NCBI GenBank assembly: GCA_016839585.1
Contig: JAEOTZ010000016.1
Coordinates: forward strand, 15,215-79,214
Reading direction: 5' to 3'
From: Promethearchaeota archaeon
GTDB lineage: Archaea; Asgardarchaeota; Lokiarchaeia; Sigyniarchaeales; SOKP01
DNA: 64,000 bases
The notes under the pieces were generated by a model, which saw only the letters and a program-made list of their open reading frames with translations, ran no database searches and had not been told where the DNA came from. Below, piece by piece: positions 1,283 through 8,755 of this stretch. The translations under genes were made by a program, and so were the position numbers. Every line of letters starts with the position of its first letter. Position 1 is the first letter of the stretch.

Positions 1283-1496
1283 TATTATATTCACTTTTTT
1301 CATTTTAATGTTTAATTTTGATATTTAACGATATGAAAATGTTATTTTTTGTATTAATTTCTATTAATAAATTAAAATAGTTTTAGTTTTGCATTCTCAA
1401 ATTTCTGTAAAAATAAGAGAATCAAAAATTAAAATATAAAAGATAAATAAATAAAATAAAAGAAAATGTAAGATTTTTTATTTAGTTATTAAATTT

Positions 1497-1709
1497 TTAC
1501 TCTTCTTCCTCTTCATCTCCCAATAATTCTTCGATTTTATCTTCTAACTCTTCTACTTTCTCATCAATTTCTGCAATTTTCCTATATGTCTCACAAGTCT
1601 CGCAAGCATCATTTTCCTCACACTTGGGAAGAGTGTCGCATATTTCCTCTAGTTGATCCCTTTCCTCTAATAATTTTTCAACTTGGTCCTCAAGTTCTTC
1701 GATACTCAT
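1497..1709 (-). CDS. Small acidic coiled-coil protein with a 4-Cys loop (C-x5-C-x5-C-x2-C)
   Basis: 70-aa ORF with a GGTGTGA SD-like sequence upstream; heptad-rich acidic helices flank the cysteines. Confidence 0.7.
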   Translation of the reverse strand: MSIEELEDQVEKLLEERDQLEEICDTLPKCEENDACETCETYRKIAEIDEKVEELEDKIEELLGDEEEEE

Positions 1710-1841
1710 ATATCACACCAAAAAATGTTAAGATAAAAAAGAAAATATAATTTATTTTTTTTTGCTATAAAAATTTGAATTATATAAATTAAGTATAAGT
1801 GAATACTTAGAATCAGATGAACTATTAATGTGTTAGATTAA

Positions 1842-2666
1842 CTAACGGAAAAAGAAGAAGAAACTGATGATCATTAATGCAATTATTACAATTGTTAAAG
1901 AAAGAAGCAAAAACTTTTTAGTTAAATGTGTTCTCTTTTTGATGTTATCATTTTCTTGATATGGAGCCGTTTCAATTAAAAATTTCTTAGTTGGGGTTTT
2001 TTTTCTAATGGGAACTTCTTCTTTCTTATAGAGCCTTTTAAATTTCTTTCTGAAAGTTTTAACAGACTTTTTAATTATATCTTGAACCTCTTTTGGTAAA
2101 TCTTCATCGGCTATTTCAAAATCACGAGTCATAAAATCTAAACCAATAGTTAATTTATAACTTGTTTCAAATTTCTTTCCTATAAAAGTTTTAATTAAGG
2201 ATGACTTCCCTACTGCGGCATCTCCAACAAGTAAGATCTTAAATCTGAAATGATTCCCATCGACTACTTCTCCTAATCTCGGTTGAAGATCTAATAAAGC
2301 AATAATAGCTAGTCGATTAAACAAATTATCTACATTTTCATTTTCTAATGCTGAAGTTTCAATATATTCAAATAAATGATGCTGGTTTACTTTTTGTATT
2401 ATTTTTTTGCGAGGTATTATTTCGCCTAAATCCTTTTTCAAGTCATTCTTATTTCCAACTAAGATAATTGGGACGTTTCCTGATCTATTCCTTATGTCAT
2501 TAAAATATACATCAATATCATCATAAGTATCAGGACGACTTAAGTCGAAAACTAATCCTATGGCAGCAACACCCTTATAGAAATCAGTTTTAAAGAAATC
2601 AAATCGTTCTTGTCCAGCAATATCCCAAAGGCTGAGTGTAATTTTCAAGTTGGAAATAAACTCCAA
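1842..2666 (-). CDS. Circularly permuted Rab-like small GTPase with C-terminal transmembrane anchor
   Basis: Motif order WDIAGQE (G3), NKND (G4), ETSAL (G5), GDAAVGKSS (G1), TIGLDF (G2), then a polybasic linker and a hydrophobic C-terminal helix. Confidence 0.85.
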   Translation of the reverse strand: MEFISNLKITLSLWDIAGQERFDFFKTDFYKGVAAIGLVFDLSRPDTYDDIDVYFNDIRNRSGNVPIILVGNKNDLKKDLGEIIPRKKIIQKVNQHHLFEYIETSALENENVDNLFNRLAIIALLDLQPRLGEVVDGNHFRFKILLVGDAAVGKSSLIKTFIGKKFETSYKLTIGLDFMTRDFEIADEDLPKEVQDIIKKSVKTFRKKFKRLYKKEEVPIRKKTPTKKFLIETAPYQENDNIKKRTHLTKKFLLLSLTIVIIALMIISFFFFFR

Positions 2667-2786
2667 TATATTTTAATTTCAGATAAAATTTATTTGTAAA
2701 ATTTTTCTTTTCATTGAATATTTCTAGTAAATTATCAAAAATTAATTTTTATATTAATAAAAAGAATGTTAAAAAGATAAAGAAGG

Positions 2787-3491
2787 TTAGTTATTGGAAT
2801 CCCAAACTCCAATATAATTATCCTTAATCTCAAAAATCTTTTCAAACCCCATTTTTTTATATAGACTCTTAATACTTTTGTTATTGTGATTCCATGTTAA
2901 TCGTTTTTTATATGTATTAACTCCGTCATTATCAAGAAATAAAAAATCTATCAATTTGTATAGCTTTTCGGGAAAAAATTTACCAATTTTCAGGAATATT
3001 CTAATGAATCGAGTGTATGCTTTGATATCTTTTGGTTTTACGGCAATAGGTTCGCAAACTATTACTTTTCTCGCATGTATTTGAGCATTTTCCACTAAAG
3101 TAAAATGCGAAGGATTGATATGATGTAGTATATCACATAAAACAATAACATCTACCTTTTCTTTCGCATAGTTATGAAAATCAAGAATATTTTTTTGTTT
3201 AACACTAATATATTTCATTTTGGATTTCCCTCTCATCCAATCCTTCTTCAATTTAGTTAAGAATCTACGGTTAATATCCCAACCTTCATAAATGTTTGAC
3301 GGATGTAAAAATCTAGTAAGAAAGCCAGTTCCACAGGCTAGGTCCAATATATGCTTGTTTTTACCGATTAATTTTGAAATGGATAAATATTTCCTCCTGA
3401 CATTATATATTTTGTTTGATAAGAAGTTATAAATTCTGCCACTTCGATACATTAGACTTCTAAATCCTTGGAGTGCTGATTTAAATGTCAT
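2787..3491 (-). CDS. Class I SAM-dependent methyltransferase
   Basis: ILDLACGTG motif I and VDVIVLCDILHH. Confidence 0.8.
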   Translation of the reverse strand: MTFKSALQGFRSLMYRSGRIYNFLSNKIYNVRRKYLSISKLIGKNKHILDLACGTGFLTRFLHPSNIYEGWDINRRFLTKLKKDWMRGKSKMKYISVKQKNILDFHNYAKEKVDVIVLCDILHHINPSHFTLVENAQIHARKVIVCEPIAVKPKDIKAYTRFIRIFLKIGKFFPEKLYKLIDFLFLDNDGVNTYKKRLTWNHNNKSIKSLYKKMGFEKIFEIKDNYIGVWDSNN

Positions 3492-3528
3492 CGTTTAAAA
3501 AATAAAAAAGAAAATTTATTATTATGCT

Positions 3529-5589
3529 TTAAGTAGGAGACAACTCCTGCATCTTTTCTTCAATTTTCTTATCATTAATCACTATTTTTTTATCTAATAC
3601 CTTAAGCTCTTTACTAATTTCTTCGAATCTACTTTCTTGATCATTTAATTTCTTTATATATCTTTCTTTTAATGTAATTGATTGACTATCAGTCCCTAAA
3701 ACAGCAATGTTTTCTCTCAGCCTTTCTTGTTCGCCAGTCATTACATCGCGTTCTTCATGTAATTTTTCTCTCTTGTTTTTTAAATCATTTGAAGTCTGAA
3801 TTAATTCTGCAATTTCTTTTAGTTGTTGTTCGAGTTTTGGATCAATGAATTTATGTTTGACATAAAAGCCTACTCTTTTAAGAATATCTTCCTTGGACCA
3901 ATTCCATAAGTAATTGCTTGAGTAATTTTCTTTTCTTTCTTTAAGTTTAAAGATAATCGCATCTTTAGGTTTTAAAGTTATTTTAAAGCGCCAATAATTC
4001 GGTGTTTCTTCTGGATCAACAGGTTTTTCTATAAATTTGTAACCAGAAGTTTTAGGATGATCAAGATAGAGTTCTTTTTCTTCAGTGGTCTTGTTATTTA
4101 TTTTGTATTCAGTCATTAAATTAGTATAATAGTATTCATAAGAATAACCACTCCCAAACGTTACTTTATGAACGCTTAAATTTTCAGATTTTTGTTCATG
4201 CATTATAATTACAGCTTGTTCAACAGCATAATTTAATAGTCTTGTATCTTCTTTATTCAAAAAGGGGATAATAGCTTCTCCTGCAAGATTATCATCATAG
4301 ATTAGTGTAGCAGGTCCTCTTTCTAGTGTTAAATTTGTATTATTTGTTATTTCAAGACATGCATTAGGATTTTTATTATGTTCATCTTTATTATACAATA
4401 ATATTCGCTTAGCTTTGATTGCTTCGGTTAAAATGGGAACTAAAGCAGACTGTTTCCTTTTAATGGAAACAGGATTTGAAATATTATACTCAAAAAGCTC
4501 CCCTATATCTTTAGTTTGAGTTTTCGTCTGAAATTTAACTTTATCCATTAATGCATCATCAGATATTGTGGCTCCTGTAACACCAAATCCACCAGCTGCT
4601 CCTGCTGGTGGTGCAGATGGAGCAGCTACCATTCTTGCACGACTCTTCATAGCTTTAAGTTTAGGTGCTGCTTCCGCCATACTGTATTCTTTAAATCTTT
4701 CCATTTCTAAACCCTCCTCTATTTCGGTAGGTCTAGCACTCAAAACTTTCGGTGGTTGAATAACAGGACGCTGAATAAAAATAGGTCTATAAAAATCATA
4801 TATAAAAGAAACCGGCATTCCTGCCACTAAAGATAATGCTATATCTTCCCAATCTTGATTTGTTGTATTTTCAATAAGACTCCAACCAGAAAGTAAACAC
4901 TTCTGTTCTAATGCTTGTTGTTTGCTCATTATTAATCGATAAGAAGTCTTCCAGATAGGGCTTTCTCGTATATAAGATACAAAAATACTTCTTTCAATAT
5001 TATCAGCTCCACCTGACTCACAATTAATTTTTATCTTTTTAGCATCTTTCTTCTTTCCAGCAATAATAGTATCAAAAAAAAATTTTAAATCTTTTTTAAT
5101 GTCTTCATTTAATATATCGAAGGACTTAATCTCTGAAAAGGGAATTTTGGTAATAATATCATCATCTTGTAATATTATCAATAATTTCTCGATTATTTTT
5201 TGTTCTTTAATAAATTTTTCAATTTCTTCAATGCCTATTATAGTTCCTAAAATTTGTTTACTAGCTCCAATTGTTAGATTGACTTTTGCTCCTTTAATTT
5301 GCGTTATAAGTGAAGAAAACGAATCTTTATCAGGAATGTTTAACATGATTGATTTTAATAACTGTAGAGTGTCTAAAGCAGCATCATAAGAAATTGAGGA
5401 TATATATCCTTTTTCACTAGTGTCTAATACAAAAAGAGATTTTAGTACATCATTCATCTCATCAACTTTAAATTCAAGTTCGAACGAATCTGTTCCTTTT
5501 ATTATCCCTTCGAGAATATAATAAGAAACCCCGTGCTTGAAAATTATAACTTTTTTTACTTTTAATTTTGACATAAAATTATTATACAT
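3529..5589 (-). CDS. DUF4139-like protein with C-terminal coiled coil
   Basis: N-terminal VIIFKHGVSY, WKTSYRL, ENTTNQDWEDIALSLVAG and GELFEY..PVSI are typical of the DUF4140/DUF4139 family. Confidence 0.7.
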   Translation of the reverse strand: MYNNFMSKLKVKKVIIFKHGVSYYILEGIIKGTDSFELEFKVDEMNDVLKSLFVLDTSEKGYISSISYDAALDTLQLLKSIMLNIPDKDSFSSLITQIKGAKVNLTIGASKQILGTIIGIEEIEKFIKEQKIIEKLLIILQDDDIITKIPFSEIKSFDILNEDIKKDLKFFFDTIIAGKKKDAKKIKINCESGGADNIERSIFVSYIRESPIWKTSYRLIMSKQQALEQKCLLSGWSLIENTTNQDWEDIALSLVAGMPVSFIYDFYRPIFIQRPVIQPPKVLSARPTEIEEGLEMERFKEYSMAEAAPKLKAMKSRARMVAAPSAPPAGAAGGFGVTGATISDDALMDKVKFQTKTQTKDIGELFEYNISNPVSIKRKQSALVPILTEAIKAKRILLYNKDEHNKNPNACLEITNNTNLTLERGPATLIYDDNLAGEAIIPFLNKEDTRLLNYAVEQAVIIMHEQKSENLSVHKVTFGSGYSYEYYYTNLMTEYKINNKTTEEKELYLDHPKTSGYKFIEKPVDPEETPNYWRFKITLKPKDAIIFKLKERKENYSSNYLWNWSKEDILKRVGFYVKHKFIDPKLEQQLKEIAELIQTSNDLKNKREKLHEERDVMTGEQERLRENIAVLGTDSQSITLKERYIKKLNDQESRFEEISKELKVLDKKIVINDKKIEEKMQELSPT

Positions 5590-8212: not shown

Positions 8213-8755
8213 TTAAGATGGGCTTTTATTTTTAAAGATTAATCTCGCTAATAGATCAAAAATTTTACTTACATTTTCACCTGTTTTTGAACTGCATTCT
8301 ATAAATCCTTTTGCTTCCATTGATTTTGCTATTTGCATTGCTTTTTTTGTTGATACTTCTTTTAAATGATTTAAATCTACTTTACCTCCAACAAAGATAA
8401 TCGGTAATTCATTATCTACATCTTTTTTGGCTATAGCATCCTCAACTATCGCAAACCAATTATCTACATGAACAAGTGAACCATAATTAGTAATATCATA
8501 CATGAATATCGCACCATTAGCGCCTTTTAAATATAAAGGAAAAAGAAATCTAAAGCGTTCTTCACCAGCAAAATCCCATATCTGTAACTTAACGATTTCT
8601 CCATTAACTTCAACATCTTTTAACATAAATTCAACTCCTAAAGTTATTGAAATATCCTGCTTAAATAAGTTTGTCAAAAATCTATGAGCTAATGTTGTTT
8701 TACCCGTTCCAGAATCGCCAAAAATCACTATCTTAAAAGTTGAGCTGTATTCCAA
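8213..8755 (-). CDS. Rab-like small GTPase (canonical motif order)
   Basis: GDSGTGKT, TLGVEF, WDFAGEERF, GGKVD, ECSSKTG. Confidence 0.92.
   Translation of the reverse strand: MEYSSTFKIVIFGDSGTGKTTLAHRFLTNLFKQDISITLGVEFMLKDVEVNGEIVKLQIWDFAGEERFRFLFPLYLKGANGAIFMYDITNYGSLVHVDNWFAIVEDAIAKKDVDNELPIIFVGGKVDLNHLKEVSTKKAMQIAKSMEAKGFIECSSKTGENVSKIFDLLARLIFKNKSPS

What the first reader, a model, noticed from the sequence alone, without database searches (positions are those of the whole stretch)
1842..2666. Circularly permuted, tail-anchored Rab-like GTPase (G3-G4-G5-G1-G2)
Seen: the protein starts at strand beta3 (KITLSLWDIAGQERF, G3) and runs through G4 (GNKND), G5 (ETSAL) and helix alpha5. After a short linker (QPRLGEVVDGNH) it supplies the missing N-terminal part: FKILLVGDAAVGKSS (G1) and YKLTIGLDFMTRDF (G2/RabF1 plus beta2). 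Each motif occurs once, so this is one complete domain cut at the beta2-beta3 hairpin. The 120-bp AT-rich upstream gap holds no frameshifted P-loop. A polybasic linker and a C-terminal TM helix follow. Known: YlqF/YawG permutants use G4-G5-G1-G2-G3, and a G3-G4-G5-G1-G2 'cpRAS' domain is described from some eukaryotes inside larger proteins. Inference: a stand-alone archaeal cp-Rab held on the membrane by a tail anchor instead of prenylation, with switch I placed next to the anchor. It could be an undescribed Asgard membrane-trafficking switch.
Basis: partly seen in the sequence, partly recalled or inferred. Interest (0 to 1): 0.9.

Follow-up and report, generated by a model that had tools for sequence, protein, structure and literature searches.

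The report
Circularly permuted, membrane-anchored Asgard Rab-like GTPase
This Asgard archaeal gene encodes a real, conserved Rab-like GTP switch whose two sequence halves are swapped and which carries its own membrane anchor. The same swap is known from the eukaryotic cpRAS domain, but this archaeal, stand-alone form appears to be undescribed.

Summary
The ORF at 1842-2666 (minus strand; likely true start 2648, 268 aa) is one complete Ras-fold G domain in the order G3-G4-G5-G1-G2. It is cut exactly at the beta2/beta3 hairpin, and each motif occurs once.

- **C-terminal parts:** a strongly cationic amphipathic helix, a low-complexity linker and a C-terminal transmembrane helix with one residue after it.
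- **Not an artefact:** contigs from independent studies bridge the junction. All 120 best homologues have the same order. The G domain evolves at dN/dS 0.05-0.16. AlphaFold2 folds it as one compact domain (pLDDT 83, pTM 0.82).
- **Family:** one clade (SH-aLRT 99). It is single-copy per genome, present in 49 of 53 genomes of the own genus and in about half the genera of one GTDB order. No junction-spanning match without stop codons was listed outside that order in a 400-genome phylum sample.
- **Two subclades:** short forms like this one (some have lost the anchor but keep the basic helix) and long forms of 316-755 aa, most with extra C-terminal sequence and hydrophobic segments.

The closest known case is eukaryotic cpRAS, which has the same cut but is RAS-type and sits inside large proteins. 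The archaeal family is Rab-like and probably arose independently.

Its function is inferred, not shown. A domain-swapped dimer remains a live rival.

Earlier agents of this scan found the same family on other genomes.

The parts
1842..2666 (-). ORF of the circularly permuted Rab-like GTPase as listed from the first TTG (274 aa, including the stop at 1842-1844)
   Evidence: Pfam Ras 129.2 bits against a cut-off of 21.6
2646..2648 (-). Likely true start codon (second TTG), giving a 268-aa product that begins M-K-I-T-L (beta3)
   Evidence: The aligned position is ATG in L008 and TTG in L005. A conserved GGAG/GAGG lies about 12 nt upstream, and the first TTG is not conserved in L005 or L008. Most homologues start MKITLSLWD.
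2610..2627 (-). G3 / switch II start, WDIAGQ (beta3 end); D15, G18 and Q19 are invariant
2442..2453 (-). G4, NKND (guanine specificity)
2346..2360 (-). G5, ETSAL
2250..2285 (-). New linker QPRLGEVVDGNH that joins helix alpha5 to strand beta1. The PRLGE core is a family signature kept in most members of both subclades.
   Evidence: R130 and G132 are invariant in A1; it is kept in long forms; it forms a short strand in the model
2202..2225 (-). G1 / P-loop, GDAAVGKS
2133..2159 (-). G2 / switch I with a RabF1-like motif, YKLTIGLDF (T173 invariant)
2112..2132 (-). Strand beta2, the last element of the G domain (the new C-terminal end of the fold)
2019..2099 (-). Cationic amphipathic helix directly after beta2 (hydrophobic moment 0.70-0.74; net charge +7 to +10 per 18 residues). 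It is also kept in relatives that lack the transmembrane tail.
1914..2018 (-). Low-complexity, K-rich, poorly conserved spacer that ends in a basic patch (KKRTHLTKK) before the membrane helix
   Evidence: pLDDT below 50 for 217-245; variable in A1; tail dN/dS 0.15-0.5
1848..1913 (-). C-terminal transmembrane helix (tail anchor), followed by a single Arg
   Evidence: Kyte-Doolittle 19-residue mean of 2.9; equivalent helices occur in 27 of the 45 archaeal family members scored; helix 241-273 in the model

Best explanation
The gene encodes a working small GTPase of the Ras superfamily, Rab-like in sequence, whose G domain is circularly permuted.

**Anatomy.** The chain starts at strand beta3 and runs through switch II, G4, G5 and helix alpha5. 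A conserved 12-residue linker (PRLGE core) then leads into beta1, the P-loop, alpha1, switch I and beta2. The two parts pack in one chain into a single Ras fold with one nucleotide pocket.

**Membrane attachment.** The chain leaves the fold at the end of beta2, that is, at the interswitch hairpin, as a strongly cationic amphipathic helix. A flexible basic spacer and a C-terminal transmembrane helix follow. The protein is therefore held permanently on the cytoplasmic face of the membrane (basic residues before the helix, one residue after it). It has no prenyl group and no GDI-type extraction cycle.

**Inferred mechanism.** Switching happens only through GTP/GDP exchange and hydrolysis at the membrane. 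The membrane-binding helix is continuous with beta2 and switch I. The nucleotide state could therefore change how the helix and the G domain sit on the bilayer. That resembles the way Arf/Sar1 couple their interswitch to an amphipathic helix.

**Origin.** The permutation arose once, from an Asgard Rab-like paralogue, in one order of Lokiarchaeia-type archaea.

**Shown:** gene integrity, the permutation, motif conservation, purifying selection, family monophyly and distribution, and the predicted compact fold and anchor.

**Inferred:** GTPase activity, membrane topology, coupling to the helix, and the cellular role.
For: **Permutation**
- Swapped matches to Pfam Ras and to Ypt32.
- An HMM built from the re-ordered family matches the genome's canonical GTPases end to end (for example C5_83720, E 7.8e-57). 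It matches this protein in two swapped pieces.

**Function retained**
- These residues are invariant across 40 members: G148, G153, K154 and S155 of the P-loop; T173; D15, G18 and Q19; N72, K73 and D75; S105.
- G-domain dN/dS is 0.05-0.16 in nine pairwise comparisons.

**Single domain**
- The AlphaFold2 G-domain model has pLDDT 83.2 and pTM 0.82, with all six strands and five helices. Only the switch loops have low confidence.
- Residues beta3-alpha5 superpose on Rab and Rho structures at 1.5-2 A over 110-125 columns.

**Not an artefact**
- A 5179-nt contig from another study (X9) covers 1888-3600. Contigs of X13 and X7 bridge 2200-2300.
- All 120 best homologues have the same order.

**Family**
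- 45 archaeal permuted sequences form one clade, SH-aLRT 99.
- One copy per genome, found in 49 of 53 genomes of the own genus.
- A junction-specific profile gives a clear gap: E 1e-25 or better in the same genomes, against 1e-18 or worse elsewhere.

**Anchor**
- The hydrophobic C-terminal helix occurs in both subclades.
- The amphipathic helix has a hydrophobic moment of 0.70-0.74 and net charge up to +10.
- Two full-length ArsA/Get3-family ORFs are in the genome. This is weak support, because that family rings in all 14 control genomes.
Against: - No biochemical or expression data exist.
- The full-length model is only moderately confident (pLDDT 67.8, pTM 0.58).
- About three quarters of genomes in the own genus carry a form without the transmembrane tail. 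Permanent anchoring is therefore not essential to the family's function.
- Gene context yields no GEF, GAP, longin or roadblock partner. Synteny decays in the more distant genera.
- A homodimer prediction places beta1-alpha1 of one chain into the other chain. The score was 0.42 and the best of 3 controls 0.00. In the tool's calibration the mark was reached by 20 of 30 proteins solved as pairs of one chain and by 1 of 23 solved as single chains. The runs agree in at least 29% of contacts, and the partner's pLDDT is at least 60. Closure within one chain is therefore not the only predicted arrangement.
Confidence: 0.75

Rival explanations
1. Obligate domain-swapped homodimer. The beta3-alpha5 part of one chain is completed by the beta1-alpha1-beta2 part of a second chain. 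This gives two Ras-like lobes, each built from two chains, and a dimer with two membrane anchors.
For: Homodimer prediction on alignment A3: score 0.42, best of 3 controls 0.00. In the tool's calibration the mark was reached by 20 of 30 proteins solved as pairs of one chain and by 1 of 23 solved as single chains. The runs agree in at least 29% of contacts, and the partner's pLDDT is at least 60.

The confident contacts are beta4 (residues 26-35) with beta1 (132-143) of the other chain, and alpha5 (106-118) with beta1/alpha1 (134-155) of the other chain. These are the intradomain contacts of a Ras fold, made in trans. Circular permutants with short linkers are known to domain-swap (general knowledge).
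Against: - One of the three runs scored 0.00, and the median only just reaches the mark.
- The interface is the Ras fold's own core. A predictor can place co-evolving intrachain contacts between chains, so the pass may only reflect likeness to solved GTPases.
- AlphaFold2 closes the fold within one chain at pTM 0.82.
- A 12-residue linker is long enough to join alpha5 to beta1 in cis.
Confidence: 0.17
2. The archaeal family and the eukaryotic cpRAS domain share one ancestral permutation (vertical descent or transfer) rather than being independent events.
For: The motif order and the cut point (between strands 2 and 3) are the same as in cpRAS. CPRas is considered a possible LECA component (PMC13393502). 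Asgard archaea are the closest relatives of eukaryotes.
Against: - cpRAS is a typical RAS-family domain with the TIE G2 motif, set inside large VWA or COG2373-like proteins.
- This family has a Rab-type TIGLDF switch I, and its best solved matches are Rab11/Ypt31/32, Rab7 and a Thorarchaeota Rab.
- It groups with canonical Asgard paralogues of the same genome.
- It is confined to one order. No stop-free junction-spanning match was listed outside that order in a 400-genome phylum sample.
- cpRAS sequences could not be obtained by reference, so no joint tree was built.
Confidence: 0.06
3. Assembly artefact, pseudogene, or doubly truncated remnant of a tandem double GTPase without function.
For: Tandem and adjacent GTPase genes do exist in these genomes (L090, L091, L093). 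They are the expected raw material for a permutation.
Against: Independent contigs bridge the junction. The family is single-copy and conserved in dozens of genomes with an identical order. All catalytic residues are invariant. dN/dS is 0.05-0.16. The tandem proteins found are no closer to the family than single canonical GTPases.
Confidence: 0.02

Closest known systems
cpRAS domain of eukaryotic CPRas proteins (Elias & Novotny 2008, Biol Direct 3:21; PMC2430557)
   Same: The motif order G3-G4-G5-G1-G2 is the same. The cut between strands 2 and 3 is the same. Strand1-helix1-strand2 follows helix 5 directly. All G motifs are retained.
   Different: cpRAS is RAS-family (TIE G2 motif), eukaryotic, and embedded in large proteins with VWA or COG2373-like regions. 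This protein is Rab-like (TIGLDF), archaeal and stand-alone. It ends in an amphipathic helix and a transmembrane anchor, and in the tree it sits with Asgard canonical paralogues.
YlqF/YawG (YRG) circularly permuted GTPases
   Same: A P-loop GTPase domain that works despite circular permutation (PMC2430557 text).
   Different: Their order is G4-G5-G1-G2-G3, cut between strand 3 and helix 2. They are a different GTPase lineage with a ribosome-biogenesis role. The NCBIfam YlqF model scores 13.8 bits against a cut-off of 208.2.
Canonical Rab GTPases (Rab11/Ypt31-32, Rab7) and the solved Thorarchaeota Rab (PDB 7ezb)
   Same: These are the best sequence matches (E about 1e-24). RabF-like motifs are present in switch I, the interswitch and switch II. 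The catalytic Gln is present.
   Different: Canonical Rabs have the order G1-G5. Eukaryotic Rabs attach through C-terminal prenylated Cys after a hypervariable tail on alpha5, and they cycle through GDI (general knowledge). Here the order is permuted, no C-terminal Cys is present, the tether leaves from beta2, and the anchor is a transmembrane helix.
Arf/Sar1 GTPases, including the Asgard Arf-like proteins (PMC11914678)
   Same: An amphipathic membrane-binding helix sits next to the interswitch. This makes nucleotide-dependent membrane engagement plausible. It is a functional analogy only.
   Different: In Arf/Sar1 the helix is N-terminal, the fold is not permuted, and the family is different. 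Coupling is untested here.
Membrane-anchored GTPases such as SR-beta (N-terminal TM) and Toc34 or Miro (C-terminal tail anchor); named from general knowledge
   Same: The G domain is fixed to a membrane by its own transmembrane helix rather than by a lipid.
   Different: The families are unrelated or only distantly related, none is permuted, and their roles (targeting receptors, organelle motility) have not been shown to apply here.

Membership tests
Ras superfamily small GTPase (Pfam PF00071) | Profile match above the curated cut-off | tested here: met
   129.2 bits against a cut-off of 21.6, in two stretches; TIGR00231 small_GTP 71.1 bits against 42.5
Ras superfamily small GTPase (Pfam PF00071) | G1 GxxxxGK[ST], G2 Thr, G3 DxxGQ, G4 NKxD and G5 SA[KL] all present | tested here: met
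   Each motif occurs once, and the residues are invariant across 40 family members
Ras superfamily small GTPase (Pfam PF00071) | Canonical linear order G1-G2-G3-G4-G5 | tested here: not met
   The order is G3-G4-G5-G1-G2
Ras superfamily small GTPase (Pfam PF00071) | Binds and hydrolyses GTP | not testable with these tools
   Needs purified protein
Rab family | Rab-specific motifs (RabF1 IGxDF in switch I, and others; definition recalled from Pereira-Leal & Seabra 2000) | tested here: inconclusive
   IGLDF, WDIAGQERF, FYKGV and LVFDLS resemble RabF1-5. The top solved matches are Rabs. No Rab-specific profile or rooted eukaryote tree was available.
Rab family | C-terminal Cys prenylation motif | tested here: not met
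   The C-terminus is ...ISFFFFFR with no Cys; a transmembrane helix is there instead
cpRAS domain (Elias & Novotny 2008) | G3-G4-G5-G1-G2 order with the cut between strands 2 and 3 | tested here: met
cpRAS domain (Elias & Novotny 2008) | RAS-family signature (TIE G2 motif) | tested here: not met
   Switch I is YKLTIGLDF; the definition comes
cpRAS domain (Elias & Novotny 2008) | Embedded in a large protein with VWA or COG2373-like regions; eukaryotic | tested here: not met
   No other Pfam domain in the 274-aa ORF; relatives are Asgard MAGs
cpRAS domain (Elias & Novotny 2008) | Groups with cpRAS sequences in a tree | not tested
   No cpRAS sequence could be obtained by reference (one search found none)
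YlqF/YawG (YRG) permuted GTPases | G4-G5-G1-G2-G3 order and family profile | tested here: not met
   The order differs. TIGR03596 scores 13.8 bits against a cut-off of 208.2; TIGR03597 scores 21.8 against 297.4.
Tail-anchored membrane protein | A single transmembrane helix at the extreme C-terminus, with no N-terminal signal or other TM | tested here: met
   The only strongly hydrophobic segment is residues 252-273 of 274, with one residue after it and a basic flank before it
Tail-anchored membrane protein | Post-translational insertion (Get3/ArsA route) with a cytoplasmic N-terminal domain | not testable with these tools
   Two ArsA-family ORFs exist in the genome, but that family rings in all 14 control genomes

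The most novel reading that the evidence does not exclude
The permutation is adaptive rather than neutral. Moving the chain's exit to the end of beta2 wires switch I and the interswitch directly to a cationic amphipathic helix and a membrane anchor. That would make a Rab-type fold into an Arf-like device whose grip or orientation on the membrane depends on the nucleotide. Alternatively, it works as a domain-swapped, two-anchored dimer. Either would be a way of coupling a small GTPase to a membrane that has not been described, evolved inside the archaeal lineage closest to eukaryotes.
Probability: 0.15. Interest if true: 0.8.

Novelty: new variant of a known kind. Interest (0 to 1): 0.6.

Why it matters
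Circular permutation of a Ras-like G domain at the beta2/beta3 hairpin was once argued to be structurally unlikely (quoted in PMC2430557). In the full-text library I searched, the only paper using this motif order is the one on eukaryotic cpRAS.

A second, apparently independent case now exists. It is stand-alone, small, single-copy, strongly conserved and self-anchored. It would show that the Ras fold tolerates this cut repeatedly.

It also gives a compact model for three questions:
- How does the fold assemble when its interswitch hairpin is open?
- How does a small GTPase work without a lipid anchor or a GDI cycle?
- What do the expanded small-GTPase sets of Asgard archaea do at membranes?

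Its restriction to one order means it says little directly about the eukaryotic ancestor.

Tried and rejected
- **Expression:** the search of sequencing runs listed no RNA holder, so nothing can be said about expression.
- **Gene context:** the block helicase - canonical Ras GTPase - AOR - thioredoxin-like - 686-aa protein - methyltransferase - cp-GTPase - acidic CxxC protein - acyl-CoA dehydrogenase is kept among close relatives. In genera g3 and g8 and in family f2 only the dehydrogenase, or nothing, stays nearby. I take the synteny as inherited, not as evidence for a partner. The gene inserted between the GTPase and the acidic protein in the tail-less loci differs between loci and lies on the other strand, so it is not a split-off anchor.
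- **Surviving intermediates:** tandem double or triple GTPases among the representative hits are eukaryotic gene models (plant, mollusc, fungus) or no closer than single-domain GTPases. The archaeal tandems L090 and L091 have a degenerate first domain and are not close relatives.
- **Obtaining cpRAS sequences:** the search for longer homologues returned only canonical multidomain GTPases, so no joint tree was built.
- **Structure searches:** Foldseek can only align the larger half because it is sequential. It cannot by itself show the complete fold.
- **Distribution threshold:** the first whole-protein search at E 1e-35 to 1e-40 missed divergent long forms in genera g5 and g2 and in family f28. 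These were later found with a junction profile and with L092 as query. Genus counts are therefore lower bounds.
- **Literature:** eight full-text searches and look-ups in four further papers found no description of a permuted Asgard GTPase. Subscription-only papers were not searched.

Full report
**1. What is in the sequence**

The minus strand of 1842-2666 holds an intact ORF of 274 codons counted from the first TTG.
- A DNA alignment with six relatives shows that the second in-frame TTG (2648) is the conserved start. It is ATG in L008 and TTG in L005.
- A GGAG/GAGG lies about 12 nt upstream in all of them, and the first TTG is absent from L005 and L008.
- The product is then 268 aa and begins M-K-I-T-L-S-L-W-D, one residue before strand beta3.
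- The 120-bp gap to the upstream methyltransferase gene is 12.5% G+C, is closed in all three frames and holds no P-loop. No other P-loop occurs in any frame of 1400-3600.

**2. The permutation is real**

- Pfam Ras matches residues 6-120 to profile positions 45-157. P-loop models match from residue 143.
- Against solved structures, the best hits are Ypt32, Rab11, Rab7 and a Thorarchaeota Rab, all in two pieces. Residues 140-187 align to Ypt32 12-59, and residues 4-126 to Ypt32 57-176. The cut therefore lies exactly in the beta2/beta3 hairpin.
- Each G motif occurs once: G3 at 14-19, G4 at 72-75, G5 at 103-107, G1 at 148-155 and G2 at 170-178.
- I built an HMM from the family after re-ordering it into canonical order. 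It matches the genome's ordinary small GTPases end to end (best E 7.8e-57). It matches this protein in two swapped pieces.

**3. It is not an artefact and not decaying**

- Contigs assembled from other studies cover the junction. X9 gives a 5179-nt contig over 1888-3600 with 76 differences, X13 covers 2130-2469, and X7 covers 2115-2279 and 2259-3468. The possible source run gives a 6747-nt contig with no difference.
- All 120 best homologues start at beta3 and have G4 near residue 66 and G1 near residue 142.
- Across 40 members these residues are invariant: the P-loop Gly, Lys and Ser; the switch I Thr; D, G and Q of DxxGQ; N, K and D of NKxD; and the G5 Ser.
- Pairwise dN/dS of the G domain is 0.05-0.16. 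That of the tail is 0.15-0.5.

**4. Fold**

- With a 46-sequence alignment of permuted G domains, AlphaFold2 gives pLDDT 83.2 and pTM 0.82 for residues 1-189 of the 268-aa product.
- The elements run beta3, alpha2, beta4, alpha3, beta5, alpha4, beta6, alpha5, a short linker strand, beta1, alpha1, a disordered switch I, and beta2.
- The full-length model is weaker (67.8 / 0.58). It shows a long helix after beta2, a disordered spacer and a confident C-terminal helix.
- Foldseek is sequential, so it aligns only beta3-alpha5. That part fits Rab and Rho structures at 1.5-2 A.

**5. The C-terminal part**

- Residues 184-210 of the 268-aa product form an amphipathic helix with a hydrophobic moment of 0.70-0.74 and net charge +7 to +10.
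- A K-rich spacer follows, then a basic patch, then a 22-residue hydrophobic helix with a single Arg after it.
- This is the layout of a tail-anchored protein with a cytoplasmic N-terminal domain. No Cys is present for prenylation.
- The genome holds two full-length ArsA/Get3-family ORFs. That family is too widespread to count as evidence.

**6. The family**

*Copy number and distribution*
- In whole-genome searches there is one copy per genome. It is found in 49 of 53 genomes of the own genus; the four without it are 58-88% complete.
- It is also found in several other genera of the same GTDB order.
- A profile of the alpha5-linker-beta1 junction separates the family cleanly across 400 genomes of the phylum. 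Full-length junction matches score E 1e-25 or better. The next match is at 1e-18 and runs through stop codons between two adjacent canonical genes.
- The same profile also led to divergent long forms in genus g5. A search with one of them (L092) added genus g2 and family f28. About half of the order's 24 genera therefore carry the family.
- No junction-spanning match without stop codons was listed outside the order among the genomes sampled.
- NCBI record titles call the relatives Promethearchaeota (Lokiarchaeota). Some carry other Asgard labels, but GTDB-based grouping places them in one order.

*Tree and subclades*
- In a maximum-likelihood tree of re-ordered sequences with 120 canonical GTPases, the 45 archaeal permuted sequences form one clade (SH-aLRT 99). 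It sits beside canonical paralogues of the same genome.
- The clade splits into a short-form subclade (97) and a long-form subclade (99).
- Long forms are 316-755 aa. Most add a charged or Pro-rich spacer, further C-terminal sequence with no Pfam match, and hydrophobic segments near the C-terminus.
- The linker core PRLGE is kept in most members of both subclades.

*Loss of the anchor*
- Transmembrane tails occur in both subclades. Tail-less forms are nested inside the short-form subclade and keep the cationic helix.
- Judged by ORF length and query coverage, roughly a quarter of the genus's genomes have the anchored form and the rest the tail-less form. No genome has both.
- I infer that the anchor is ancestral and was lost several times.

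**7. Mechanism**

*Shown:* a complete, conserved catalytic set in one compact predicted domain, and a membrane-binding C-terminus that leaves the fold at beta2.

*Inferred:* a GTP/GDP switch fixed on the cytoplasmic face of the membrane, with no extraction cycle. The tether and the amphipathic helix are continuous with the interswitch and switch I, so the nucleotide state may alter membrane engagement, as in Arf/Sar1.

No regulator or effector can be named. The neighbours are a SAM methyltransferase, a 686-aa protein without a Pfam family, a thioredoxin-like protein, an aldehyde:ferredoxin oxidoreductase, a canonical Ras-like GTPase, a helicase, an acidic CxxC mini-protein and an acyl-CoA dehydrogenase. 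This synteny fades with phylogenetic distance.

**8. A live rival: a domain-swapped dimer**

- A two-copy prediction scored 0.42 against 0.00 for the best of 3 controls.
- In the tool's calibration, the mark was reached by 20 of 30 proteins solved as pairs of one chain and by 1 of 23 solved as single chains.
- The runs agree in at least 29% of contacts, the partner's pLDDT is at least 60, and one of the three runs scored 0.00.
- The confident contacts are beta4 with the other chain's beta1, and alpha5 with the other chain's beta1/alpha1. That is the Ras core made in trans.
- Because these are the fold's own contacts, the pass may reflect likeness to known GTPases rather than real dimerisation. 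The single-chain model also closes confidently in cis. I give this rival about 0.17.

**9. Comparison with what is known**

- In the full-text library I searched, the only paper that uses the motif order G3-G4-G5-G1-G2 is the one on the eukaryotic cpRAS domain.
- cpRAS shares the cut point. It differs in being a RAS-family domain with the TIE motif inside large VWA or COG2373-like proteins.
- This family is Rab-like, stand-alone, archaeal and self-anchored, and it groups with Asgard paralogues. Independent origin is therefore the better reading, but I could not put cpRAS sequences into the tree.
- YlqF/YawG permutants have a different order and lineage.
- A single 243-aa sequence from the foraminifer Bolivina argentea also shows the order. 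In the tree it sits apart from the archaeal clade, among unnamed representative sequences, and it may be a transcriptome artefact.
- No paper describing a permuted Asgard GTPase was found in the searchable library.

**10. Earlier scan results**

Other agents of this scan reported the same family on other genomes and reached the same reading. I re-tested their main claims here. New in this report:
- the corrected start codon;
- the two-subclade structure with long multidomain forms;
- the pattern of anchor loss;
- the junction-profile distribution;
- selection estimates;
- independent-contig support;
- the domain-swap rival.

**Verdict**

This is a new variant of a known kind: a second, probably independent G3-G4-G5-G1-G2 permutant. 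The cellular role is unknown.

Noticed in passing
window 1497-1709 (-): A 70-aa, extremely acidic, coiled-coil-like protein with a Cys cluster (C-x5-C-x6-C-x2-C) and no Pfam family above cut-off. It is the same-strand downstream neighbour of the permuted GTPase in nearly all close relatives (50-97% identity).
   Followed up: partly
window 3529-5589 (-): A 686-aa conserved protein with no Pfam family, an Ala/Gly/Pro-rich middle and a coiled-coil C-terminus. It lies upstream of the GTPase (with or without the methyltransferase between them) in most relatives, but not in genera g3 and g8 or in family f2.
   Followed up: partly
L092:1561-3027 (+); also L080:1912-3231, L081:64-2187: Long forms of the permuted family. 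The cp G domain is followed by a charged or Pro-rich spacer, a conserved region of about 130 aa with no Pfam match (motifs such as PGC-x-CVP and ITP-x-x-x-G) and hydrophobic C-terminal segments. L081 and L092 end near RKPKDAKP. In L092 the catalytic Gln of G3 is replaced (WDPPGE).
   Followed up: partly
L090:1303-2877 (-), L091:884-2791 (+): Proteins of 524-635 aa in the same genus with two Ras-like domains in tandem. The first has a degenerate P-loop (a pseudo-GTPase) and the second is canonical.
   Followed up: partly
L093:897-1412 and 1431-1946 (+): Two canonical 171-aa small GTPase genes 18 nt apart on one strand in another family of the class. This is the kind of gene pair from which a fusion and a permutation could start.
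   Followed up: no
P0185 (EukProt, Bolivina argentea): A single 243-aa foraminiferal sequence with the same G3...G1 order. In the tree it sits apart from the archaeal clade, among unnamed representative sequences. It is either an independent eukaryotic permutant or a transcript-assembly artefact.
   Followed up: partly
own genome, G000:C27:6504-7017 (+), outside the window: A Ras-family match split over two frames: profile positions 1-40 lie in a 55-aa frame and positions 34-157 in a 531-aa frame. This may be a frameshifted or split GTPase gene.
   Followed up: no
G147:C41:9523-10275; G259:C16:42503-43030; G254:C98:3963-4487 (other genomes): In G147 the alignment to the anchored form continues past the stop codon to residue 263, which hints at a recently truncated tail. 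G259 and G254 hold a second permuted-like match interrupted by stop codons, possibly pseudogenes.
   Followed up: no
window 8213-8755 (-): A canonical 180-aa Ras-family GTPase (Pfam Ras 152 bits) lies 5.5 kb from the permuted one, and the two stay syntenic in close relatives. The genome gives 73 matches to the Pfam Ras profile.
   Followed up: partly
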